From positions 1,920,001 to 1,952,000 of the forward strand of contig JAIZWK010000001.1 in the NCBI GenBank assembly GCA_021498095.1: a stretch of 32,000 bases of DNA, in the 5' to 3' direction. The stretch is from Candidatus Harpocratesius repetitus. Lineage in GTDB: Archaea; Asgardarchaeota; Lokiarchaeia; Sigyniarchaeales; Promethearchaeaceae. Every line of letters begins with the position of its first letter. The first letter of the stretch is position 1. The translations under genes were made by a program, and so were the position numbers. Positions 16,403 to 28,951 of the stretch are shown here, piece by piece. Below the pieces are notes generated by a model. That model saw only the letters and a program-made list of their open reading frames with translations. It was not told the origin of the DNA and did not search any database.

Positions 16403-17590
16403 TTAGTGTGAAGTTTTAGCATGATAATACTGCATCAATTGATGTTCTAAAAATTCCTTGTTCACCCATACAATACCTTTTCGCTGCTCTTCTTCAGGTC
16501 CAATTTCTGAAATGCTTGTTTCAGGTAATAATCGCAGAAAACGAGCATTGCCAATCTTTTTTCCATCATATGTTGAAGTACTAAACAAAGAAATTAAACG
16601 ATTATCCCAAAATAGATGATAACCTTCGCTAAATTTTTGATGACCTCTAATAAATAGATTAAAACCATTTAGTTCCATAAAATCTCGAAAAGCTTGCTCG
16701 CTAAATCTTGGTCGTCCAGTTCTGGGTGTTGGAGCAACCATTTCTTTTAATTCAGGATCTGGATCTGACCAAAGAATTGTTTGGGAATAAACATCCATAT
16801 CAAAATGTTCAAGTTGATAACAATTTAGATTAGATTCTATCTCATCTATTCGAATTGGGGCATAATTTGAGACATCAAATGGTATTCCTCCATGAACTAC
16901 TAGTCCCTGTTTATTCCCACTTCGAAATATTAATCCTAAAGGTAATTTGCTGAAAAAATCTGTAATAAGCTTCCATATCATTTCAAAACGCTCACGGGAT
17001 TGTGCTTTTTCAAATAGATGCTGCGAAAAACCATATCTGGAGCAAACTGATGAATCTTCGTGATTTCCACGTAAAATAAATACATTATCTGGAAAAAGGA
17101 TCCAAAATGAGAGAATAAAGGCTAAATTTTGTAAATCATAAGGATTTCGATCCACAATATCTCCAATCCAAATTACTTTGACTTTTGGATTTACTTGAAA
17201 TACCTTTATGAAGTAATCAATCATTAAATACGTATCATCAAATGAACCATGTGTATCTCCAACAAAATAATACGTATAATCTGGTGTTTGCATGTCTCGA
17301 ATAAATTTATGATATTTCTCAGTTGTATATTTATGTTCTAAGAGTTTTTCGGCCATTAGAAATAGATTCTCATAGTTTTCTAACAAATCAACGGGTTCTG
17401 ATTTGAATTTTTCTGAACCAGCAGCAAAATACCGAAAAAACCATTGCCACACATATTGAGGTGGATTCAAGTTTCCAATATAATAAAGTTGATCTCTTAA
17501 TTCATTTGGGATTTGATTTGCATTTGATTGTGTAATTTTAATCAACCTCTTGAGCGTATATTTTAAAGGGAATTCGATATGTTTTTCCAT
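16403..17590 (-). CDS. PPP-family Ser/Thr protein phosphatase
   Basis: GDTHG, GDIVDR, LRGNHE, HGG, LWSDP, RGHQ, FSTSTY; start overlaps the kinase 3' end by 53 nt. Confidence 0.92.
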   Translation of the reverse strand: MEKHIEFPLKYTLKRLIKITQSNANQIPNELRDQLYYIGNLNPPQYVWQWFFRYFAAGSEKFKSEPVDLLENYENLFLMAEKLLEHKYTTEKYHKFIRDMQTPDYTYYFVGDTHGSFDDTYLMIDYFIKVFQVNPKVKVIWIGDIVDRNPYDLQNLAFILSFWILFPDNVFILRGNHEDSSVCSRYGFSQHLFEKAQSRERFEMIWKLITDFFSKLPLGLIFRSGNKQGLVVHGGIPFDVSNYAPIRIDEIESNLNCYQLEHFDMDVYSQTILWSDPDPELKEMVAPTPRTGRPRFSEQAFRDFMELNGFNLFIRGHQKFSEGYHLFWDNRLISLFSTSTYDGKKIGNARFLRLLPETSISEIGPEEEQRKGIVWVNKEFLEHQLMQYYHAKTSH

Positions 17591-19514
17591 CCGGTGCTAC
17601 AAATGGGACTTCAATTAACATATTTCCCAAATTTGCCCGGGATAGTTGAATCGAGACATTATCTAAATTTTTTATTGCAACATTATTATAAACTTGTCGA
17701 TTTGGCATAGTTAAATTTGAAAGGTATGTTCCCATCGGTGAATAAATATCCCTAATATATGCAATATCACCGTCAATATATAATTGAAAAGAAAATTTAC
17801 CTTCATCTGTTGGTAGTAATGCGTTGTAAATATGTCCGTCCATTTCATGCGTCCGACCCACGTTTAAAATTTCCTCTCTTCCTATATTAACTATTGTTTT
17901 AGGCGGTATTTCTAAAAATCCTTGATTATAATCGCAATAAAGATAATATTTAATTCTTTTTTGAGGGGATTGGATTTTTTGAATTAATTTTCCTGCTGCG
18001 TCATAAATCCATTGTAATGCATCATAAACTTTAACCATATCTGCCATTCGATCTGCCGGCTCATATTGTGTCATATATTCTACTAGTTTATTGAATTCTT
18101 CTGGTAATTGTGGATTAAAATCGCTAGGATGAAGCACAAAATCTTCATTAGTGGCAGCAGCTCCTGCATAATGTCCTCCACTAAAAAGATAGAACATAAT
18201 ATGACCCAACATGTATATATCTGTTGTTGCAATTGGCTCAAATCCTGCCATTACTTCTGGAGGTGTGCCTCTATTTCGAATTCCTGTCGCTTCCGGCGTT
18301 GCTGATACGTAATAGGGTTTACGGGGATGATACATTTGATCCATTCCAATCTCTTTAGCCACTCCCCAATCAATAATTATTGGATAATAGTTTCCATCTT
18401 CTTGAGTTACAATCATTACATTTTGAACTGTTAAATCTCGGTGAACAATACCTTTTTGATGACAAAAATACATATGGCGAGTAATCGGCATTAAGATGTT
18501 CTTGATTAAATCTTGTAATGCAGTTAGAGTTAAATGGTCAAGATCAGGGAAATTTTGAATATACCATTTATCTAATGGAATTCCATCAATGAATTCTAAA
18601 AAGATATAGTATTCTGGATTTTGAAATTGTGTTAAATGAAGATTACCTAAGTATTTCATAGTTTTTTCAGGGGATTCACTTTGAATTTCGGTGATCTTTG
18701 ATTCTCTTTTCCAGTATTTTTCACAGAAGTTTTTACCTGATTCTGGATCATGAAATCGAGTGAAATAAAACTCTTTCAAAGCTGCAATTCGATCGGTGTT
18801 CATGTTTTTTACTTTATGAACTGCTCCCATACCTCCAGTTCCAATTTTTTCGATAATTTGGTATTTTTCACCATTTAATATTAAAATATCTCCATTTTTA
18901 ATCCCTGCATGAGTTTTTTCTACTAAAGCATTATCTGGTTTTGTAGGAGATGGAGGAAATGCCTGAATATTTTGAAAAATAGGATTTTTTTGGGCATTTA
19001 AATTAGAATTCTTTGAACTGACCTTTTGAGATGATGATTCTTCATTTCCTTCTATAATTGGGAAAGGTAAAAATGCACTTTTTTTTATTTTAGGTTTTGG
19101 TTGTGCTGCTAATGTTTTTGCCAATTCCAAAGCTTCATGTGAACTTGATGCAGCTAATTTCCTTCGTTTTGGGATTTTTGGTGGTAGTTTTGCATCAAAA
19201 CCTTTGATTGGTGAACTATTTTTAGATCTTAATGTATTACTATTACTCTTTGGTTTTACACCAATTCTAATCGCTTTTAGCTGACCCTTACAATTTGACG
19301 ATTGGCATATTAATTTTGAATTGCCATGTAGTTGAATGAAGCTATTTTTATTTTGAGTCAAACCACATTTCCGACATCGAAGAATAAATCTACCGCTTAT
19401 TTTTTCTAAGCGAAGATTATTGCATTGTTCACAAGTATGTGTTCCTTGGCTATCTAAAAGATAAATATTTTTACATTGAGGGCATTGAAAGAATTCTTTG
19501 GGAGAAATCGACAT
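17538..19514 (-). CDS. Hanks-type protein kinase with N-terminal tandem Zn-ribbon and C-terminal FHA-like domain
   Basis: GTGGMGAV, AALKE, HRDLTVQN, DWG, PPE, DIYMLG, R in subdomain XI; eight N-terminal Cys; C-terminal IGR...IRDIYSPMGT resembles FHA GR and D-x2-S-x-NGT. Confidence 0.93.
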   Translation of the reverse strand: MSISPKEFFQCPQCKNIYLLDSQGTHTCEQCNNLRLEKISGRFILRCRKCGLTQNKNSFIQLHGNSKLICQSSNCKGQLKAIRIGVKPKSNSNTLRSKNSSPIKGFDAKLPPKIPKRRKLAASSSHEALELAKTLAAQPKPKIKKSAFLPFPIIEGNEESSSQKVSSKNSNLNAQKNPIFQNIQAFPPSPTKPDNALVEKTHAGIKNGDILILNGEKYQIIEKIGTGGMGAVHKVKNMNTDRIAALKEFYFTRFHDPESGKNFCEKYWKRESKITEIQSESPEKTMKYLGNLHLTQFQNPEYYIFLEFIDGIPLDKWYIQNFPDLDHLTLTALQDLIKNILMPITRHMYFCHQKGIVHRDLTVQNVMIVTQEDGNYYPIIIDWGVAKEIGMDQMYHPRKPYYVSATPEATGIRNRGTPPEVMAGFEPIATTDIYMLGHIMFYLFSGGHYAGAAATNEDFVLHPSDFNPQLPEEFNKLVEYMTQYEPADRMADMVKVYDALQWIYDAAGKLIQKIQSPQKRIKYYLYCDYNQGFLEIPPKTIVNIGREEILNVGRTHEMDGHIYNALLPTDEGKFSFQLYIDGDIAYIRDIYSPMGTYLSNLTMPNRQVYNNVAIKNLDNVSIQLSRANLGNMLIEVPFVAPDGKTYRIPFKIYAQEVD

Positions 19515-19899: not shown

Positions 19900-20982
19900 A
19901 TGGAACTGATATTTCTAGGAACAAGCGGAGCCACTCCCACTAAGGAGCGAAATTTACCATCTGTTGCTCTTAGGTTGGATTCTGGGCATATTTTACTATT
20001 TGATGCAGGTGAAGATGTTCAACGAAGATTTGAAGCTGCAAATTTAAAATTTAATGTTCCATCAACAATTTTTATTTCACATTTACATGGAGATCACGTT
20101 ATTGGTCTTCCAGGTCTTTTATTTAATTTTCATCTTAATTCCCGCACAAAACCTTTAACAATTGTTGGTCCATTAGGTATTGCTTCTTTTTTATTAATGC
20201 ATTATCAAATTGTTGGATTAAAGGCTCAGAATTATCCATTAACTGTCATTGAAATTGTTCCTCCAAGATTGAATAATTCCAATTTCAAAAATTCTACAAA
20301 TAACGTTGAAAATCATCAAAAGAATCAAATTTCTCAAAATACTCAGATAATTGTTTATTCTCGCTTTTTAACACCTGAATATGAACGCAAATTTTTAACT
20401 AAAGAAGATAATATCATTTTTTCTGCAAAAAAGTATCACGTAAAACACTATTGGTTGAATCATTCTGTGCCTACTATGGGTTTTAGATTTGAAGAACATC
20501 CATTAAATGGAAAATTCAATCCAATACAAGCAAAAAAAATTGGTGTTCCTGAAGGAAAGTTGTGGAAACGCCTTCAAAATGGTCAATCAATCACATTAAA
20601 GGATGGACGAATAATAAATCCTGTCGAATCTGGTATTGTTACCCCTCCTCGACCTGGAAGGATTATTTGTTACGGTGCTGACACAGCAAAATGTGATTCA
20701 CTCGTTAAATTAGCTGAAAACGCAGATATTTTCATATGTGAATCTACATTTGGTAAAGAACTCCAAGATATAGCTATAGAAAAAAAACACCTTACTGCAG
20801 AAATGGCAGCAGAAATCGCCAAAAAGGCAAGAGTTCAAATGCTATTTTTAACTCATTTTTCCAGTCGTTATAAAGATGTAAAGGATTTATTAATTGAAGC
20901 CAAGCAAATATTCCCATCAACACAAACGGCTAAAGATCTTTTATCTGTAAATATAAAAGTTCGAAATCAAAAAAAGAATTAA
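19900..20982 (+). CDS. rnz: Ribonuclease Z (tRNA 3' endonuclease)
   Basis: FLGT...PT..RN, DAGE, SHLHGDH, GP-rich exosite GVPEG, ADT, EST, HLT, THFSSRY. Confidence 0.95.
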   Translation: MELIFLGTSGATPTKERNLPSVALRLDSGHILLFDAGEDVQRRFEAANLKFNVPSTIFISHLHGDHVIGLPGLLFNFHLNSRTKPLTIVGPLGIASFLLMHYQIVGLKAQNYPLTVIEIVPPRLNNSNFKNSTNNVENHQKNQISQNTQIIVYSRFLTPEYERKFLTKEDNIIFSAKKYHVKHYWLNHSVPTMGFRFEEHPLNGKFNPIQAKKIGVPEGKLWKRLQNGQSITLKDGRIINPVESGIVTPPRPGRIICYGADTAKCDSLVKLAENADIFICESTFGKELQDIAIEKKHLTAEMAAEIAKKARVQMLFLTHFSSRYKDVKDLLIEAKQIFPSTQTAKDLLSVNIKVRNQKKN

Positions 20983-20989
20983 TAATAGT

Positions 20990-21050
20990 AAAAAGAAATA
21001 AAAGTAAAAGGAAATAAAAAAAGGTTTACTATGGTGGTTAAAATCCACCA
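20990..21050 (-). terminator. Short hairpin plus U-rich tract after the ubiquitin-like gene
   Basis: TGGTGG/CCACCA inverted repeat (21032-21037 / 21045-21050) around the stop codon, followed on the minus strand by T-rich runs. Confidence 0.4.
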
Positions 21051-21247
21051 GCAATTTTAGGTAAAATAGTGATTTCGCTTCCTTGCTCAATTACATTATC
21101 TAAGCTAACTTTTTTTCCATTAGCTAAAACAACAAAAACTTTACTTTCTAATTTTAAATCTTTCAGCAATTCTCTTACCGTGCGTGTAGTTTGAACGCGG
21201 TAAGTCTTAAGTGTTCCAATTGTGTTAATTTCTTGAAGACTCTGCAT
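21038..21247 (-). CDS. MoaD/ThiS/SAMP-like ubiquitin-fold protein with a one-residue extension after the di-Gly (GG-F)
   Basis: 69 aa; VVLANG...LD..I..GSEITILPKIAGG is the beta-grasp sulfur-carrier pattern; codons GGT GGA TTT TAA. Confidence 0.88.
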   Translation of the reverse strand: MQSLQEINTIGTLKTYRVQTTRTVRELLKDLKLESKVFVVLANGKKVSLDNVIEQGSEITILPKIAGGF

Positions 21248-21471
21248 TGTTTTTCCCTTCTTGAAAATAAAACTTCTTCATTTTAATTGTGAAAAACAAC
21301 CCATTTAAATGTTATTCATATTATAAATTCGATTTAGTTGGAAAGATCAAGATTATGGAAGAATGGAAGAATTAAATATAGATTTTTTTTCAAAAGATAA
21401 CCTTTTTCAAAAATTGATTGTTTTTTTAGATAGCACTTGAATTATTTCAAGATTTCCCGTGATCTTTAATT

Positions 21472-23379
21472 ATGGATGATTCCCACATTTTTGCTGAACA
21501 AGAAGCTATTATTAATTATGTTAAACAAGCTATCCTCAAAATTAGTCATTGTTCAACAGAAACAGAAAAAGAACAGAGATTGTATGATTTATTAGCATAT
21601 CTTATATCTTCTTCTAATGACATCGCTCAGCGACATGATTTTTATGAAGCTGCTGGAAGGTTATATAGTGCAGCTTACTATTTAGAGCAACTTCATCCTT
21701 TAAAAGCCCAAGAAATCTATTTTCAAGTAATCAATTATTATCAAGCTTATACAGAACATCTAATTCATAAAAAAAACTTCTCAGAAGCAGCGAATGTAGT
21801 TTTGAAAATAGCATCTATATATAAAAAAAAAATAAAAAATCAAAATGAATATCTCGAACAACTAAAACTCGGAATAGAATTGTTGAAAAAATCATTTAAA
21901 ATTATTGAAGGTCCTCTTGAAAATTTATCAAACTTAAAATTAAGAGAAATTTGTCATAATCATCAAAATTTAGCTTTATTATATGAAAAAATAAAGAACT
22001 GGAATTTAATGCTTTTTGAAGCAAGAACTGCCCTAAAAATTGCTAAAAAGATACCTGATTATATGGTAGCTGCTAATTCTTTCCAATATATATCTCGTAG
22101 TATAAGCAATTTACAAAATAGAACCAAAGGAATAAATATACTTCTTGAAGCTATTGATTATTTTGCAAAAGAAGCAGAAAATTGCGAAATTAAAAACGAA
22201 TTCATACCTTTAGCTCAACTTTACCAAATCATTAAAAATTTGTATGATCAAATGAATAATGTTGAAAGATATGAATATTTTGCAAGAAAGGAAGCAGGTG
22301 TATATCTTGCCTTAGCTAACCAAGGAATACGAAATCGGATTAAAAATGAGCAAATCGCATCCTATTACAGAGGGGCTGCTTTGTGCTACCAGACTTTGAA
22401 AGGAAATTCAATTGATGCGGCCAGTTGTTTTTTTTTAGCGGCACACTATTCCAAAAAAGCGAAAAAATTTTATGATGCTGCAATAAGTTATGAGGATGCT
22501 GCTAAATTACTTGAGAATTTGCTTAAATATCAAAAAGCTTGGGATCTCTATCAACAGGCAAGTTCTTGTGCAATTCGTGTTAATGATTATGAATTAGCAA
22601 TTTTAAATTTGATTAATGCAGAAGCAGTTGGAACAAAAATAAATCAAGATCTTCAATGTTTATATCATAAAATGTATAAATACCTCTTAAAATATGCACA
22701 AATTCAACATTATAAAGAGAATTATTTTATTTCAGGAACACTTTTCTTAGAAGCTGCTGAAAGTCTCTCAAAACTTCCTGAAATACCAATTGATAAAATT
22801 AAAGGGATTCTTTATGCTTGTTATTGTGAATATCTCTCTCTTTTTCAAAAAACAGATATAAAATCTTATCCTTCTTCAACAATATATTATATTGGAGTTT
22901 TAGTAAATTTTCTAGATCCAATTTTTTCATCGATGACAGAAGAAGAGATTAAGTATTTAGAAGATATAAAAAAAAAAGTCGAAATATTTAATGAAAAAAC
23001 TAATAAAAAGAAAAAGAAAGATGAAAAAGATGTTAGATTTTTAATAGGTAATCATCATATTAATCTTAGTTCTTTAAATAAATATGAAAATCGAAATCTT
23101 AATGAGAATCAAGAGAAATATGAGAAATCTTTTTTCAAACTTCAATCTTCCCAAGAAATTTATGAATATTTAATTTCTCATGCTCCTAAAAAATATATTG
23201 ACTTAATTTCAACTCTGCGCGATTTTTTACATTCACTTAAACCTCTTAGAAAATCATTTTTCATAAAAAATAGAATTGTTTTTCCTGATCATGGAATTGC
23301 TGAAATCCTAAAAATCCATGATTTAATTCTTAAATATCCGTTACTATTAAAATCAAGTAATTCGATTTCTTTAATTTAA
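21472..23379 (+). CDS. TPR-like alpha-solenoid protein with a SNAP-like segment
   Basis: Repeated A-A-x-x-Y-x-x-A-A helices, e.g. AASCFFLAAHYSKKAKKFYDAAISYEDAAKLLE; no TM segment. Confidence 0.75.
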   Translation: MDDSHIFAEQEAIINYVKQAILKISHCSTETEKEQRLYDLLAYLISSSNDIAQRHDFYEAAGRLYSAAYYLEQLHPLKAQEIYFQVINYYQAYTEHLIHKKNFSEAANVVLKIASIYKKKIKNQNEYLEQLKLGIELLKKSFKIIEGPLENLSNLKLREICHNHQNLALLYEKIKNWNLMLFEARTALKIAKKIPDYMVAANSFQYISRSISNLQNRTKGINILLEAIDYFAKEAENCEIKNEFIPLAQLYQIIKNLYDQMNNVERYEYFARKEAGVYLALANQGIRNRIKNEQIASYYRGAALCYQTLKGNSIDAASCFFLAAHYSKKAKKFYDAAISYEDAAKLLENLLKYQKAWDLYQQASSCAIRVNDYELAILNLINAEAVGTKINQDLQCLYHKMYKYLLKYAQIQHYKENYFISGTLFLEAAESLSKLPEIPIDKIKGILYACYCEYLSLFQKTDIKSYPSSTIYYIGVLVNFLDPIFSSMTEEEIKYLEDIKKKVEIFNEKTNKKKKKDEKDVRFLIGNHHINLSSLNKYENRNLNENQEKYEKSFFKLQSSQEIYEYLISHAPKKYIDLISTLRDFLHSLKPLRKSFFIKNRIVFPDHGIAEILKIHDLILKYPLLLKSSNSISLI

Positions 23380-24705: not shown

Positions 24706-26469
24706 TTAATGTCTCCTTTCACTACGTGGATAATAGTGAGTATGTAGTAAATGATGGGCTTCATTGCTACCTAAAGTCTTTAAAAAGTTAGCATATAACC
24801 GTTGTACTGCTGTATTTTCATGAGATAATCTGATTGTATATTGCTCATCCAATTTATAAAGTGCCTGTGCACGTTGTTTAATTACTTCCAAATCCATTCC
24901 TCTTGGTTGGCCTCCTCCATTGATACATCCACCAGGACAAGCCATAATTTCAATAAAGTGATAATTGTTTGGATTACCTGCTCGAATTTCATCACAAATA
25001 ATTCGTGCATTTTTTAAACCACTAGCAGCAACACAATTAACTGTTAACTCTGGAGTTAACTGAATTTTTGCCCTTTTTATTCCTTCAATACCACGTACTT
25101 GAGTTATTTCAAGATGTTCCAAATTTTTTTTGTTCACCAACCAATAAGCAGTTCTTAAAGCAGCTTCCATGACTCCTCCAGAAGCTCCAAAAATTTTTCC
25201 TGCTCCTGTACTTTCTCCTAATGGATCATCATATTTTGAATCTGGAAGAGACTTTAAATCTAAACCAAACTTTTTAATTGCTCTAATCAATTCACGTGTG
25301 GTTAAAACTGCATCAGTATTGGGAAGTCCATCATTAACCAGCTCAGAACGATCAGCTTCGAATTTTTTTGCCATACATGGCATAATTGCTACTTGGAAAA
25401 TTCGTTTAGGCATGATCTGTTGATTCTTTGCCCAATAGCTCTTAATAATTGCACCTTGCATGCTCATAGGAGATTTACACGTAGACATATATGGGATTAA
25501 ATCTGCATATTCATGTTCCATAAACTTAATCCAACCTGGGCTGCAGGTAGAAATTAACGGGAGAGTTTTATTTTCTGTAATTCGCTTGATTAATTCATTT
25601 GCTTCTTCTAAAATAGTTAAATCTGCTCCAAAAACTGTATCAAAAACAGCATCAAAGCCCATTCTTTTTAAAGCGGTTACTAATTTTCCAGAAACATCTG
25701 TACCGATGGGAAATCCAAATTCTTCGCCAATTGTAACCGAAATACTCGGTGCAACTTGAACAGTTACAATGGTGTTTGGATCATCAATTGCTTCTCTGAC
25801 TTCTGTGCTTACATCTCTTTCTTTTAATGCTCCTGTGGGACAAACTCTTACGCACTGCCCGCATAGTACACACGAAGATTCATGAATTGTTTTTCCAAAT
25901 GCGCTGGTAACTATAGATTCAAATCCACGTTTTGTAACATCAATTGCGTGTACTGATTGAACTTCATCACATACTTTTACACAGCGTTGGCATAAAATAC
26001 ATTTATTAGGATCCCGTACAAGAGCCATGCTTGTTTGATCCAAAGGATTTTGTCGTTTTGATCCTAAAAACCTGTGATCTCTTATATTATAGATTTTTGC
26101 TAGATCTTGTAATTCACACTCACCATTTCTTTCACAATATAAACAATCCATTTCATGATTTGCTACTAAAAGCTCAACAATAACTTTCCTTATCGCTTGA
26201 ATTTTTGGACTGTTGGTGTGAATTTTCATTCCTTCTTTTACAAATGTACTACATGAAGGAACAGGTCGAGGGAAGCCTTCAACTTCAACCACACAAATTC
26301 TGCATGATCCCGTAGGTGTTATTTCATCCAAATAACATAATGTAGGAATATGGATGCCATGATTACGTGCCACTTGAAGAATTGTTTGAGTATCTTCCAC
26401 TTTCATGGGTTCATCGTTCATCCAAATATTAACTGGTTTTGATATAAGTAATTTTGTTGATGTTGCCAT
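24706..26469 (-). CDS. hydA: [FeFe]-hydrogenase catalytic subunit (group A, HydA)
   Basis: [2Fe-2S] CY..GSCRIC, His-ligated HEMDCLYC..C, two CxxCxxC ferredoxin motifs, H-cluster motifs STCSPGW, MPCMAKKFE, EIMACPGGCINGGGQP, fused small-subunit tail LLHTHY. Confidence 0.95.
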   Translation of the reverse strand: MATSTKLLISKPVNIWMNDEPMKVEDTQTILQVARNHGIHIPTLCYLDEITPTGSCRICVVEVEGFPRPVPSCSTFVKEGMKIHTNSPKIQAIRKVIVELLVANHEMDCLYCERNGECELQDLAKIYNIRDHRFLGSKRQNPLDQTSMALVRDPNKCILCQRCVKVCDEVQSVHAIDVTKRGFESIVTSAFGKTIHESSCVLCGQCVRVCPTGALKERDVSTEVREAIDDPNTIVTVQVAPSISVTIGEEFGFPIGTDVSGKLVTALKRMGFDAVFDTVFGADLTILEEANELIKRITENKTLPLISTCSPGWIKFMEHEYADLIPYMSTCKSPMSMQGAIIKSYWAKNQQIMPKRIFQVAIMPCMAKKFEADRSELVNDGLPNTDAVLTTRELIRAIKKFGLDLKSLPDSKYDDPLGESTGAGKIFGASGGVMEAALRTAYWLVNKKNLEHLEITQVRGIEGIKRAKIQLTPELTVNCVAASGLKNARIICDEIRAGNPNNYHFIEIMACPGGCINGGGQPRGMDLEVIKQRAQALYKLDEQYTIRLSHENTAVQRLYANFLKTLGSNEAHHLLHTHYYPRSERRH

Positions 26470-26487
26470 TTTTTGATTCCTCCATAT

Positions 26488-28455
26488 TTATTCTAAAAAT
26501 ATTGCGCCAAATTTACAATTTGATTGACATAGACCGCATTTTACACATTTTTCTTCAATAATATAATGTGCTTGTTTTTTCTCTCCCAATATTGCTTCAT
26601 TAGGACAGTTAAGTTTGCAAAGACCGCATCCAATACATTTTTCTGCATCTATTTTAAATGATAATAATCCAATACATGCTTTTGCAGGACATCGGTTTTC
26701 ATAAAGATGAGCTTCATATTCACTTCTGAAGTATTTTAAAGTTGTTAAAACTGGATTTGGAGCACTGATTCCAAGACCACATAGAGCCGTGTCTTTAATT
26801 ACATGCGCTAATTCCTCGAGAGAAATCATGTTATTCATTCGATCTACTACTTCCTGATCATTTTTTGGTTTTTGTGTTAATTTTGTTAATGTTTCAAGAA
26901 GTCTTCGGGTTCCTTCACGACATGGTATACATTTACCGCACGATTCATCTTGGATGAATTTCATGAAAAAACGAGCAGTATCAACCATACATGTCGAATC
27001 ATCCATGATTACTAATCCTCCAGAGCCCATCATGGCTCCTACTTTCTTCAATTGTTCATAATCTATTGGTGTATCAATTAAGTGACTTGGAATGCAACCA
27101 CCTGAAGGTCCACCAATTTGTGCAGCTTTAAATTTGTGCCCATTTGGAATGCCGCCTCCAATTTTTACAATATCACGAATTGTTATTCCCATAGGAACTT
27201 CGACCAATCCAGCACGACAAATTTTTCCAGTAAGTGAAAATACTTTAGTTCCACGAGATCTATCGATACCCCATTGTGCAAATTTCTTAGGACCATAATT
27301 TAAGATTTTGGCAATTTGAGCAATTGTTTCTACATTATTAATATTAGTTGGTCGACCCCACAATCCAACTGTGGCAGGATAAGGTGGTTTAATACGGGGC
27401 ATTCCTCTTTTTCCCTCAATCGATTCCATTAGAGCTGTTTCTTCACCACATACAAAAGCTCCGGCACCTTTTTTGATTTCAATATCAAAAGTAAAATTTG
27501 ATTTTAGAATATTCTTCCCTAAAAGACCACGTTTTCGACTTTGCTCAATTGCATTAGTTAATTGTTGGATAGCTATTGGATATTCTGCACGACAATATAT
27601 TATTCCTTTGGTCGCTCCAATAGCATATCCCATGATAAGCATACCTTCAATAATTGAAAATGGATCTGATTCTAATACTGCGCGATCCATAAACGCTCCT
27701 GGATCTCCTTCATCTGCATTACAAATGACATATTTTTGGCCATCTGGACTATTTGCATTTCGACAAAATTGCCATTTCTCTCCAGTTGGAAATCCTCCAC
27801 CTCCACGACCACGAAGACCGCTGGATTTAATATCATCAATAACTTTTTGGGGGTTTCCCTGTTCTAATACATTTGCAAATGCACTAAAGCCTTGTTCATA
27901 TGCAATATATTCTTCAATTGAACGAGGATTGAGTACTCCGCAATGAGAAAGAACAAATTTTTGTTGATTTTTGAAAAATTCATTAGCAGATATAGGAAGT
28001 ATATCTGAAAAATCTTCGTCACCAGAATTTTCCTCAACTGGATACTTCCCCAATACCCAATCTTTGATAATTTCCCCTTTTTGTATCGTTTTTTGAATTA
28101 TTTCAACAACTTTTTCTTTAGTGATTTGTTGATAAGCCACTCGAGCTTTTTTTGGTAATTTTATATCAACAATTGGCTCAAGATAACATGAACCAATACA
28201 ACCAACTGGGATGATTTCTGCATCTATTTTATATTTCTGTAATTCTGCTCTAAATGTAGTATAAGTTGATTGTGCTCCTGAAGCAAGACCGCATGTTCCC
28301 ATTCCAATGAAAATTAATGGTTTTGAATTTTGGATATGCTTTGCAGCATAATATTGCTCTTTAGTTAATGTAATTGGTGATTTATCGATTTTTTCTTTTG
28401 TAATTTTTTTTTTGGGAGATAAGTTTGCTTTCTTTACTGAATTTGTTTTACTCAT
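26488..28455 (-). CDS. hydB: NADH/FMN-binding diaphorase subunit HydB (NuoF-like), bifurcating-type architecture
   Basis: N-terminal Trx-like Cys domain, GRGGGGFPTG, NADEGDPGAFMDR, GAGAFVCGEET, GGPSGG, ESCGKCIPCREG, H..RCPAKAC, C-terminal 2x[4Fe-4S]. Confidence 0.95.
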   Translation of the reverse strand: MSKTNSVKKANLSPKKKITKEKIDKSPITLTKEQYYAAKHIQNSKPLIFIGMGTCGLASGAQSTYTTFRAELQKYKIDAEIIPVGCIGSCYLEPIVDIKLPKKARVAYQQITKEKVVEIIQKTIQKGEIIKDWVLGKYPVEENSGDEDFSDILPISANEFFKNQQKFVLSHCGVLNPRSIEEYIAYEQGFSAFANVLEQGNPQKVIDDIKSSGLRGRGGGGFPTGEKWQFCRNANSPDGQKYVICNADEGDPGAFMDRAVLESDPFSIIEGMLIMGYAIGATKGIIYCRAEYPIAIQQLTNAIEQSRKRGLLGKNILKSNFTFDIEIKKGAGAFVCGEETALMESIEGKRGMPRIKPPYPATVGLWGRPTNINNVETIAQIAKILNYGPKKFAQWGIDRSRGTKVFSLTGKICRAGLVEVPMGITIRDIVKIGGGIPNGHKFKAAQIGGPSGGCIPSHLIDTPIDYEQLKKVGAMMGSGGLVIMDDSTCMVDTARFFMKFIQDESCGKCIPCREGTRRLLETLTKLTQKPKNDQEVVDRMNNMISLEELAHVIKDTALCGLGISAPNPVLTTLKYFRSEYEAHLYENRCPAKACIGLLSFKIDAEKCIGCGLCKLNCPNEAILGEKKQAHYIIEEKCVKCGLCQSNCKFGAIFLE

Positions 28456-28498
28456 TTAATTTTCCTCCGAAATTACTTTTTTTTATTTTTCTTATTCC

Positions 28499-28951
28499 CT
28501 ATTTGTATTTACGCAAGATTTTCTTAATTTCTCCAGCAGTCAAATTACCGTAAAAATCAGAATCGATATTCACAACAGGACTTAACGCACAAGCACCTAA
28601 GCATGCAACTAAATTTAGTGTAAAACGACCATCTTTAGTCGTTTCTCCTGCCTTACACTTTAATTCCTGCTCAAACACTGGAATTAATTTTTCTGATCCC
28701 TTTACGTGACAAGCAGTTCCAGTGCATAGATTGATGACATGTCGTCCAGGAGGTTGTAGGCGGAATTGTGCATAGAATGTTGCTACTCCGTAAATTTTTG
28801 AACTGGGAATGTTAAGATATTCCGAAATTTCATATACTGATTCTTCAGAAATAAACCCATATTCTGCCTGCACCGCTTGAAGTATAGGAATAAGTTCTGA
28901 AGAATTTCCTTGGGTAAAATGGGATAAAATGTCAGATATTTTTGTAGGCAT
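28499..28951 (-). CDS. hydC: [2Fe-2S] subunit HydC (NuoE-like)
   Basis: LIPILQAVQ..GFI, GVATFYAQF, CTGTACHV, CLGACALSP. Confidence 0.95.
   Translation of the reverse strand: MPTKISDILSHFTQGNSSELIPILQAVQAEYGFISEESVYEISEYLNIPSSKIYGVATFYAQFRLQPPGRHVINLCTGTACHVKGSEKLIPVFEQELKCKAGETTKDGRFTLNLVACLGACALSPVVNIDSDFYGNLTAGEIKKILRKYK

What the first reader, a model, noticed from the sequence alone, without database searches (positions are those of the whole stretch)
21038..21247. Ubiquitin-like protein encoded as a precursor (GG-F)
Seen: C-terminal codons GGT GGA TTT TAA, so a Phe masks the di-Gly. Established: MoaD/ThiS/SAMP proteins need a free C-terminal Gly for adenylation by E1-like enzymes. Most end at GG, while eukaryotic Ubls and a few bacterial sulfur carriers need protease (for example JAMM) maturation. 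Seen: no Moco, thiamine, E1 or JAMM gene lies nearby. Inference: a protease-gated protein modifier or tRNA-thiolation carrier; the convergent neighbour rnz is suggestive only.
Basis: partly seen in the sequence, partly recalled or inferred. Interest (0 to 1): 0.6.

Follow-up and report, generated by a model that had tools for sequence, protein, structure and literature searches.

The report
Capped ubiquitin-like protein of Lokiarchaea
This small gene of an Asgard (Loki-type) archaeon encodes a ubiquitin-like protein whose reactive Gly-Gly end is covered by one extra amino acid; relatives across the class share this, so it is a real precursor that must be trimmed, but precursors of this kind are already known in archaea and eukaryotes.

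Summary
Window 21038-21247 (minus strand) encodes a 69-residue ThiS/SAMP2-family beta-grasp protein ending ...LPKIAGG-F-stop.

It is neither a sequencing error nor a private mutation. Among 92 homologous loci from 161 Lokiarchaeial genomes, 65 carry exactly one residue after GG and 21 carry none. Three are fused at GG to ribosomal protein eS31. The capped genes of two families are positional orthologs, flanked by RNase Z and a TPR/SNAP-like gene.

The cap residue is highly variable. Its codon changes in a neutral-like way: 28 sense-to-sense changes against 3 stop gains. So the cap looks tolerated rather than selected, and I found no evidence for regulatory "gating".

The window holds no detectable E1, JAMM, Moco or thiamine gene. 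Elsewhere the genome has a UbaA/MoeB-like E1 inside a sulfur-relay cluster. It also has a stand-alone 167-residue JAMM protease. Within the family, that JAMM's orthologs occur in exactly the 11 genomes that have capped or eS31-fused forms. They are missing from the three genomes whose ortholog ends at GG.

JAMM trimming of SAMP precursors is already shown for Caldiarchaeum (PMC6043591). I rate this a new member of a known kind, of moderate interest. This scan had already reported the eS31 fusion elsewhere in the same genome.

The parts
21038..21247 (-). Gene for a 69-aa SAMP2/ThiS-type ubiquitin-like protein precursor (MQSLQEIN...ILPKIAGG-F)
   Evidence: ORF. Pfam ThiS 35 bits (cut-off 22.5) and SAMP2 PF21965 29.6 bits (cut-off 27). 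AlphaFold model pLDDT 84 with beta-grasp secondary structure. Nearest folds are ThiS, Mth1743, SAMP1, MoaD, TtuB and PfSAMP2. Homologs found in 147 of 161 class genomes.
21044..21049 (-). Gly67-Gly68 codons (GGT GGA), the conserved reactive end of the mature protein
   Evidence: PKIAGG is at least 90% conserved in alignment A1, and I-A-G-G is present in 90 of the 92 class-wide loci; the other two read ISGG and IKGG. The ThiS profile ends at Gly68.
21041..21043 (-). Cap codon TTT (Phe69), one residue beyond Gly-Gly
   Evidence: At this position orthologs carry F, Y, C, H, M, A, K, I, V, S, R, N, L or E. Codon parsimony is neutral-like.
21038..21040 (-). Stop codon TAA, followed by an oligo-T tract
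   Evidence: Orthologs use TAA or TAG after the cap codon in 64 of 65 cases.
21248..21471 (.). Divergent intergenic region shared with the TPR/SNAP-like gene (presumed promoters; contains TTTATAA and TTTAAAT boxes)
   Evidence: Sequence read. The divergent arrangement is conserved in 27 of 30 ortholog loci. Promoter function is inferred, not tested.
21472..23379 (+). Conserved divergent neighbour: 635-aa TPR/SNAP-like protein of unknown function
   Evidence: Weak Pfam SNAP hit. Atlas neighbours are SNAP/TPR clusters of Promethearchaeota. It clusters with the flanking gene in 27 of 30 ortholog loci. Homologs include NEF87_001213 of L. ossiferum, which by locus-tag number lies next to the Ubl NEF87_001214.
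19900..20982 (+). Conserved convergent neighbour: ribonuclease Z
   Evidence: NCBIfam RNase Z 313 bits, above the cut-off of 252. Present beside the Ubl in 24 of 30 ortholog loci across three families.

Best explanation
The gene encodes a SAMP2/ThiS-type ubiquitin-like protein (beta-grasp fold) translated with one extra C-terminal residue (Phe69) after its Gly-Gly end. E1-type enzymes adenylate the free carboxylate of the last glycine (established for MoaD, ThiS, SAMP and Urm1). The Phe must therefore be removed before the protein can be thiocarboxylated as a sulfur carrier or conjugated to proteins. This step is inferred. The most likely trimming enzyme is the genome's stand-alone 167-aa JAMM metalloprotease at G000 1654715-1655218. 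The most likely activating enzyme is the UbaA/MoeB-like E1 at G000 3076413-3077234, which sits between DsrE, TusA and cysteine-desulfurase genes. Both assignments are inferred. The cap is best read as a tolerated, neutrally drifting passenger, made harmless by a constitutive Gly-Gly-specific processing activity. That activity is needed anyway to release the paralogous Ubl from its eS31 fusion and probably to deconjugate targets. The cap does not look like a regulatory gate.
For: Family and fold:
- Pfam ThiS and SAMP2 both score above their cut-offs, and the profile ends at Gly68.
- The model has pLDDT 84, and its nearest folds are ThiS, SAMP1, MoaD, TtuB and PfSAMP2.
- The nearest solved sequence is P. 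furiosus SAMP2.

The cap is real and inherited:
- 25 of 28 complete close homologs and 65 of 92 class-wide loci have exactly one residue after an invariant GG.
- Capped genes of families f1 and f3 share the flanking RNase Z and TPR genes, so they are positional orthologs.

The cap is unconstrained:
- 14 different cap residues occur.
- In family f3 there are 28 sense-to-sense codon changes (4 synonymous) against 3 stop gains.

Processing capacity exists:
- The closest paralog (56% identical) is fused exactly at GG to eS31 in this genus.
- 58 of 129 SAMP2-like cluster representatives are extended beyond GG.

Candidate protease:
- The stand-alone JAMM has E28, H87-x-H89 and S100-x-x-D103.
- Its orthologs occur in all 11 family genomes that have a capped or eS31-fused Ubl.
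- They were not found in the 3 genomes whose ortholog ends at GG.

Candidate E1:
- It is the best UbaA/MoeB-like hit in the genome, and it lies in a DsrE-TusA-cysteine desulfurase cluster.

Precedents:
- CsJAMM cleaves C. subterraneum SAMP precursors (PMC6043591).
- DRJAMM cleaves the MoaD-MoaE fusion (PMC8832034, abstract).
Against: - No cleavage, adenylation or conjugation has been observed. All steps after translation are inferred.
- No E1 or JAMM gene lies next to the Ubl in any of the 30 ortholog loci examined.
- The JAMM co-occurrence rests on only two or three independent lineages (genera g2 and g7). Two of those three genomes are only 76-80% complete.
- Family f3 has capped orthologs but only weak JAMM matches, inside roughly 470-aa proteins. 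The short JAMM therefore cannot be the universal processing enzyme.
- The E1 scores below NCBIfam's UbaA cut-off (230 bits against 450), and a second short E1 (416022-416762) is an equally possible partner.
- The genome also encodes an M32 carboxypeptidase that could remove a single residue.
Confidence: 0.6

Rival explanations
1. The single cap residue is removed by a general carboxypeptidase (for example the M32 enzyme at G000 592582-594042) rather than by a JAMM endopeptidase. Trimming would stop at glycine because such enzymes release C-terminal Gly poorly.
For: The genome encodes an M32 carboxypeptidase (515 bits). The cap is almost always exactly one residue (65 of 71 extended forms), which suits an exopeptidase. 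Cap residues never include Gly, Pro or Asp, and Glu occurs only once. From memory, unverified here, these are the residues that archaeal M32 enzymes release poorly.
Against: The eS31 fusion and the 2-, 4- and 8-residue tails cannot be matured by an exopeptidase, so an endopeptidase must exist anyway. With only about 25-30 independent changes, the absence of a few residues is not significant. I could not confirm M32 specificity in the literature search.
Confidence: 0.12
2. One reading: the cap is a selected regulatory gate. The modifier stays inert until a specific protease is switched on.
For: The cap persists across two families whose Ubls are only about 40-45% identical. Surviving cap codons are mostly ones that cannot become a stop in one step (52 of 65).
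Against: Cap identity is unconstrained. The rate of stop gain (3 per about 47 nucleotide changes) is at or above the neutral expectation of roughly 3-5%, so there is no sign of selection to keep the cap. Bare-GG orthologs occur in the same genus (G013) and in at least five other lineages at the same syntenic position. No protease or regulator gene is linked to the locus.
Confidence: 0.1
3. The protein does not use its C-terminus chemically. It acts non-covalently, for instance as a beta-grasp partner of the conserved TPR/SNAP-like neighbour, and the cap simply stays on.
For: The tightest conserved link of the gene is to the divergent TPR/SNAP-like gene (27 of 30 loci), not to any E1, JAMM or sulfur enzyme.
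Against: L-P-[KRH]-I-A-G-G is the most conserved part of the protein in capped and uncapped orthologs alike. That pattern is characteristic of E1-activated Ubls. Capped and bare-GG forms are interchangeable at the same locus, which is hard to reconcile with a functional capped end.
Confidence: 0.07
4. Sequencing error or strain-private mutation of a normal GG-stop gene.
For: None beyond the prior that most ThiS/MoaD proteins end at GG. The other five ThiS-family ORFs of this genome do end at GG.
Against: The genome is one closed 4.36-Mb contig. The same GG-F is present in another species of the genus, and one-residue caps occur in 65 of 92 loci from independent assemblies.
Confidence: 0.01

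Closest known systems
Caldiarchaeum subterraneum SAMP precursors (Csub_C0702, Csub_C1603) and CsJAMM (Csub_C0703); Fuchs et al. 2018, PMC6043591
   Same: Both are archaeal MoaD/ThiS-type Ubls translated with residues beyond Gly-Gly. In Caldiarchaeum a small stand-alone JAMM protease cleaves them in vitro.
   Different: There, by locus-tag number, the SAMP gene and the JAMM gene are neighbours. Here no JAMM lies within the 32-kb window or beside any ortholog. Here the extension is a single, freely varying residue conserved across a whole class. Nothing has been tested biochemically.
SAMP2 of Haloferax volcanii and Pyrococcus furiosus (PF1061; PDB 5LDA with PfJAMM1), and TtuB of Thermus
   Same: Same size (about 65-70 aa), a ThiS-like beta-grasp fold and a ...GG end. 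These are the best sequence and fold matches among solved structures. The Pfam SAMP2 model is passed.
   Different: Those solved chains end at a free GG (the alignments run to their last residue), whereas this one carries a cap. Similarity is weak (PDB E = 0.08; NCBIfam SAMP2 21.6 bits against a cut-off of 70). Partnership with UbaA and NcsA is untested.
Eukaryotic ubiquitin precursor genes (polyubiquitin with one extra terminal residue; ubiquitin-eS31)
   Same: A single, variable, non-conserved residue caps the last Gly-Gly, and a paralog is fused at Gly-Gly to ribosomal protein eS31. Both require a Gly-Gly-specific endopeptidase. The yeast cap (Asn) is mentioned in PMC8122580.
   Different: The protein is ThiS/SAMP2-type and does not match Pfam ubiquitin PF00240. 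It is a monomer, not a poly-Ubl. eL40 is not fused. Eukaryotes process with Cys-protease DUBs, which I did not search for here. The resemblance is probably convergent.
Bacterial JAMM-processed sulfur carriers: D. radiodurans MoaD-MoaE/DRJAMM (PMC8832034); from memory also QbsE/QbsD and CysO/Mec+
   Same: A ThiS/MoaD-type carrier whose Gly-Gly end is exposed by a JAMM protease before E1 activation.
   Different: Those systems lie in biosynthetic operons with their protease and E1. This gene is unlinked to any such enzyme.

Membership tests
ThiS/MoaD beta-grasp superfamily (Pfam PF02597) | Sequence match to the family profile above the curated threshold | tested here: met
   35 bits against a cut-off of 22.5; residues 17-68 cover profile positions 17-76 of 76.
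ThiS/MoaD beta-grasp superfamily (Pfam PF02597) | Beta-grasp fold | tested here: met
   AlphaFold2 model pLDDT 84 with strand-strand-helix-strand-strand-strand order. Foldseek's best hits by probability (0.96-1.00, TM 0.55-0.62) are ThiS, Mth1743, SAMP1, MoaD, TtuB and PfSAMP2. E-values are weak (0.1 or worse) because the protein is small.
ThiS/MoaD beta-grasp superfamily (Pfam PF02597) | Gly-Gly as the very last two residues of the gene product | tested here: not met
   The translation ends GG-F. The feature would be met only after trimming, so this is a precursor form.
SAMP2 (PF21965 / NCBIfam NF041919) | Profile match above threshold | tested here: inconclusive
   Pfam SAMP2 gives 29.6 bits against a cut-off of 27 (passed). 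The NCBIfam SAMP2 equivalog gives 21.6 bits against 70 (failed).
SAMP2 (PF21965 / NCBIfam NF041919) | Activation by a UbaA-type E1, isopeptide conjugation to proteins, and/or a sulfur-carrier role in tRNA 2-thiolation with NcsA | not testable with these tools
   Candidate genes exist: UbaA/MoeB-like E1s and PP-loop ATPases. No biochemical or proteomic data were available.
JAMM-matured Ubl precursors (CsSAMP/CsJAMM type) | Residues encoded beyond Gly-Gly | tested here: met
   One residue here; the same state in 65 of 92 homologs.
JAMM-matured Ubl precursors (CsSAMP/CsJAMM type) | A JAMM/MPN+ protease with an intact metal site encoded in the genome | tested here: met
   At least five JAMM ORFs. 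The stand-alone 167-aa one has E28, HxH and SxxD and co-occurs with extended Ubls within the family.
JAMM-matured Ubl precursors (CsSAMP/CsJAMM type) | Genomic linkage of Ubl and protease | tested here: not met
   No JAMM in the window or in the flanks of 30 ortholog loci. The candidate lies about 285 kb away.
JAMM-matured Ubl precursors (CsSAMP/CsJAMM type) | Cleavage exactly after Gly-Gly | not testable with these tools
   Requires an enzyme assay or mass spectrometry.
Eukaryote-type ubiquitin (PF00240) | Match to the ubiquitin profile | tested here: not met
   PF00240 is not among the Pfam hits at E up to 10. The genome's only PF00240 match is a different gene at 1085331-1085522.

The most novel reading that the evidence does not exclude
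Lokiarchaeial SAMP2-type Ubls form a precursor gene family organised like eukaryotic ubiquitin genes. The forms seen are a monomer with a one-residue throw-away cap, a fusion to ribosomal protein eS31, and (in metagenomes) fusions to other C-terminal domains. All would be matured by a dedicated Gly-Gly-specific JAMM. Precursor-style Ubl expression and processing would then be a standing feature of the closest archaeal relatives of eukaryotes, possibly tied to tRNA/ribosome biology through the conserved RNase Z neighbour, and not an invention of eukaryotes.
Probability: 0.3. Interest if true: 0.65.

Novelty: new member of a known kind. Interest (0 to 1): 0.4.

Why it matters
If the cap is trimmed as proposed, these archaea run a constitutive Gly-Gly-specific maturation step for a SAMP2-type modifier. 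That is the same logic eukaryotes use for ubiquitin (a one-residue cap on polyubiquitin, and ubiquitin-eS31). Together with the eS31 fusion in the same genus, it gives a concrete protease-substrate pair that can be tested in the two cultured relatives. It also cautions annotators: about 45% of SAMP2-like cluster representatives are extended beyond GG, so "ends in GG" filters miss many archaeal Ubls. On the other side, the neutral-like evolution of the cap argues against reading every capped Ubl as a regulatory switch.

Tried and rejected
1. Sequencing error or private mutation: rejected by orthologs.

2. Selection for keeping the cap: tested by parsimony on the codon after GG and by codon inventory. 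The result is compatible with neutrality, so I make no claim of gating.

3. RNA hairpin. In this genome TGGTGG-ATTTTAA-CCACCA pairs the Gly codons with downstream sequence (-8.4 kcal/mol). This could have explained a fixed one-codon spacer, but even the same-genus ortholog lacks it, and no common structure appears in the printed ortholog folds. Rejected.

4. Linked enzymes: Pfam scans of all large window ORFs and of the variable genes inserted at ortholog loci found no E1, JAMM, MoaE, ThiG or similar.

5. The E1-JAMM pair at 2.40 Mb looked promising but is a CBASS Cap2/Cap3/CD-NTase defence locus.

6. No NCBIfam desampylase equivalog is present; the best hit is 21 bits against a cut-off of 130.

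7. Atlas searches of the TPR neighbour and of the gene downstream of the JAMM gave nothing functional.

A genome-contig scan and a class-wide search for the Ubl-Zn-ribbon fusion P0118 found only the Ubl part. The context of the long-tailed metagenomic forms is therefore unknown.

9. A literature search for M32 carboxypeptidase specificity gave nothing usable. PMC3534793 is not held.

Full report
**Observation**

The minus strand of window 21038-21247 carries an ATG-initiated ORF of 69 codons. Its last codons are GCT GGT GGA TTT TAA. The stop lies at 21038-21040, Phe69 at 21041-21043 and Gly-Gly at 21044-21049. An oligo-T tract follows the stop.

The protein passes Pfam ThiS (35 bits; cut-off 22.5) and Pfam SAMP2 (29.6 bits; cut-off 27). 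The profile's last position aligns with Gly68, so Phe69 is one residue too many. NCBIfam models (moaD_arch, SAMP2, SAMP1, ThiS, Urm1-like) all align to residue 68 but stay below their cut-offs.

An AlphaFold2 model built on 30 homologs has pLDDT 84 and beta-grasp secondary structure. Its best structural neighbours by Foldseek probability are ThiS, Mth1743, SAMP1, MoaD, TtuB and P. furiosus SAMP2, at TM 0.55-0.62. The nearest solved sequence is PfSAMP2, and only weakly so (E = 0.08).

**Organism**

The window lies at 1,920,001-1,952,000 of a single 4,361,485-bp contig. Named homologs are from Promethearchaeota, including Lokiarchaeum ossiferum and Promethearchaeum syntrophicum. This is therefore a Loki-type Asgard archaeon.

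**Is the cap real and inherited?**

Among 28 complete close homologs (61-84% identical), PKIAGG is nearly invariant. It is followed by one residue in 23, by FF in one, and by nothing in four.

I then pulled 92 homologous loci from 161 genomes of the class:
- 65 have exactly one residue after GG.
- 21 have none.
- 3 (this genus only) continue in frame into ribosomal protein eS31.
- 3 have tails of 2, 4 or 8 residues.

The cap residue is F, Y, C, H, M, A, K, I, V, S, R, N, L or E.

In 30 loci with 1.5-kb flanks, RNase Z lies beside the Ubl in 24 and a TPR/SNAP-like gene in 27. This covers families f1, f2 and f3. The capped genes of the large family f3 (53 of 58 capped) are therefore positional orthologs of the window's gene, although only 40-45% identical.

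A quick maximum-likelihood tree of the 64-residue domain is poorly resolved. It does separate the f1 target clade (9 capped, 2 bare), the f3 clade, a GG-ended paralog clade and the eS31-fused clade. Sequencing error and private mutation are excluded.

**Is the cap selected?**

I ran Fitch parsimony on the codon following GG. In family f3 it gives 28 sense-to-sense changes, of which 4 are synonymous, spanning about 47 nucleotide differences. It gives 3 sense-to-stop changes. Roughly 3-5% of random single-base changes in sense codons create stops. The observed loss rate is thus not lower than neutral, and amino-acid identity is unconstrained.

Surviving cap codons are mostly ATT, TTT and AGT, which cannot reach a stop in one step. 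Survivorship under neutrality predicts this as well.

Bare-GG orthologs occur at the same syntenic position in a same-genus species (G013) and in genera g2, g7 and family f2. I conclude that the cap is tolerated, not demonstrably maintained.

A perfect hairpin in this genome pairs the Gly codons with downstream CCACCA. The same-genus ortholog lacks it and no common structure is seen in the other orthologs, so I dropped it as an explanation.

**What must happen for the protein to work**

Established knowledge of MoaD, ThiS, SAMP and Urm1 says that E1-like enzymes adenylate the carboxylate of the terminal glycine. Capped and bare orthologs share the same conserved L-P-[KRH]-I-A-G-G end and are interchangeable at one locus. 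The simplest reading is that the cap is removed after translation. This is inference.

Independent support that these cells cut after this Gly-Gly:
- The closest paralog (56% identical) is fused exactly at GG to eS31 at G000 1867960-1868421 and in two sister species.
- Of 129 SAMP2-like cluster representatives carrying the motif, 71 end at GG, 26 have one extra residue, 16 have 2-9 and 16 have 10 or more.

**Partner enzymes**

The window contains none, and neither do the ortholog flanks.

The genome has six ThiS-family ORFs, and the other five end at GG. It has five ThiF-family E1s:
- One is part of a CBASS-like Cap2/Cap3/CD-NTase locus.
- One is a 573-aa Ube1-like enzyme.
- Two are short MoeB/UbaA-like enzymes.

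The best UbaA/MoeB-like match is at 3076413-3077234 (230 bits to the UbaA model, below its 450-bit cut-off). It is flanked by DsrE-like, TusA and cysteine-desulfurase genes, which makes a sulfur-relay setting. The other short E1 (416022-416762) lies beside Pus10.

Among JAMM genes, the only small stand-alone one is at 1654715-1655218. It has 167 aa and carries E28, H87-S-H89 and S100-K-T-D103, with a spacer three residues longer than in Rpn11 (Rpn11 motif recalled from memory). It is divergent from a Dus gene and followed by a conserved unknown 290-aa gene. It matches CSN5, Rpn11, CsRpn11 and PfJAMM1 among solved structures.

Within family f1, clear orthologs of this JAMM (41-60% identity, about 170 aa) occur in all 11 genomes that have a capped Ubl or the eS31 fusion. 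They were not found in the three genomes (G009, G010, G021) whose positional ortholog ends at GG.

This pattern is suggestive but weak. It covers only two or three independent lineages, and two of those genomes are 76-80% complete. Family f3 has caps but only weak JAMM matches inside roughly 470-aa proteins. An M32 carboxypeptidase is a plausible alternative for removing a single residue, although it cannot release eS31.

**Function**

Sequence cannot decide between protein modifier and sulfur carrier. PP-loop ATPases (NcsA/TtuA candidates) exist in the genome.

The conserved RNase Z neighbour fits the old comparative-genomic idea of an ancestral tie between ThiS-type Ubls and tRNA modification (PMC2948915). 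So do the Dus and Pus10 genes beside the candidate JAMM and the second E1. None of these pairs is an operon, however. The tightest conserved link is the divergent TPR/SNAP-like gene, whose role is unknown.

**Comparison with what is known**

- Fuchs et al. 2018 showed that C. subterraneum SAMP precursors are cleaved by CsJAMM, and that the 9-residue tail of CsUb is removed by CsRpn11 (PMC6043591).
- DRJAMM cleaves a MoaD-MoaE fusion (PMC8832034).
- Eukaryotic polyubiquitin ends with one variable residue, and ubiquitin is fused to eS31 (PMC8122580).

The principle is therefore known. New here, as far as my searches show, are three things:
- the class-wide one-residue cap on an Asgard SAMP2-type Ubl;
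- its neutral-like evolution;
- its pairing in one genus with an eS31 fusion and a co-occurring small JAMM.

**Verdict**

This is a real, conserved precursor form and a new member of a known kind. The mechanism is inferred and the interest is moderate.

Noticed in passing
G000:C1:1867960-1868421 (+), about 52 kb before the window; also G013:C284 and G014:C14 (L048, L050): A SAMP2-type Ubl (56% identical to the window's protein) is fused in frame, exactly at Gly-Gly, to ribosomal protein eS31 (S27ae). It occurs only in this genus among the 161 class genomes. This scan already reported it (e1-5448676).
   Followed up: partly
G000:C1:2401316-2404813 (L005: 756-1214, 1192-2865, 2878-3495, all minus strand): A CD-NTase-like cyclase, a 557-aa Cap2-like E1 and a 152-aa Cap3-like JAMM form a CBASS type II-like anti-phage locus in an Asgard genome.
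   Followed up: partly
G000:C1:1653500-1656100 (L014/L108) and ten family loci L109-L118: Conserved arrangement: Dus (tRNA dihydrouridine synthase) divergent from a 167-aa stand-alone JAMM, followed by an unknown protein of about 290 aa. The unknown gene follows in 9 of 11 loci and Dus is present in 8 of 11. The unknown protein has no Pfam or Atlas lead.
   Followed up: partly
G000:C1:3074952-3078656 (L001): Sulfur-relay cluster: DsrE-like gene, UbaA/MoeB-like E1 (273 aa), TusA and a class-V aminotransferase (cysteine desulfurase-like).
   Followed up: partly
Proteins P0061, P0064, P0070, P0074, P0092, P0106, P0110, P0112, P0118, P0138, P0141, P0164: Metagenomic SAMP2-like proteins continue beyond Gly-Gly into long unrelated tails: eS31, Cys-rich zinc-ribbon-like, coiled-coil, and one hydrophobic, possibly transmembrane, stretch. 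The P0118 type is absent from the 161 class genomes, and its genomic context could not be fetched.
   Followed up: partly
window 21472-23379 (+): A 635-aa TPR/SNAP-like protein is conserved as the divergent neighbour of the Ubl gene in 27 of 30 loci across three families. Its function is unknown. The SNAP resemblance is weak (20 bits, below cut-off).
   Followed up: partly
window 24706-28951 (-): Three adjacent same-strand genes encode an [FeFe]-hydrogenase large subunit with its small-subunit domain, a NuoF-like flavoprotein and a NuoE-like 2Fe-2S ferredoxin. From general knowledge this gene set resembles electron-bifurcating hydrogenases.
   Followed up: no
window 16403-19514 (-): A eukaryote-type Ser/Thr protein kinase (658 aa, with an N-terminal Cys-rich region) overlaps by 53 bases a calcineurin-like phosphoesterase (395 aa). 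This is a possible kinase/phosphatase pair just upstream of RNase Z.
   Followed up: no
window 21030-21056: A perfect 6-bp hairpin (TGGTGG / CCACCA, 7-nt loop) encloses the cap codon and the stop codon. It is absent from the same-genus ortholog and has no counterpart in the other orthologs printed.
   Followed up: yes
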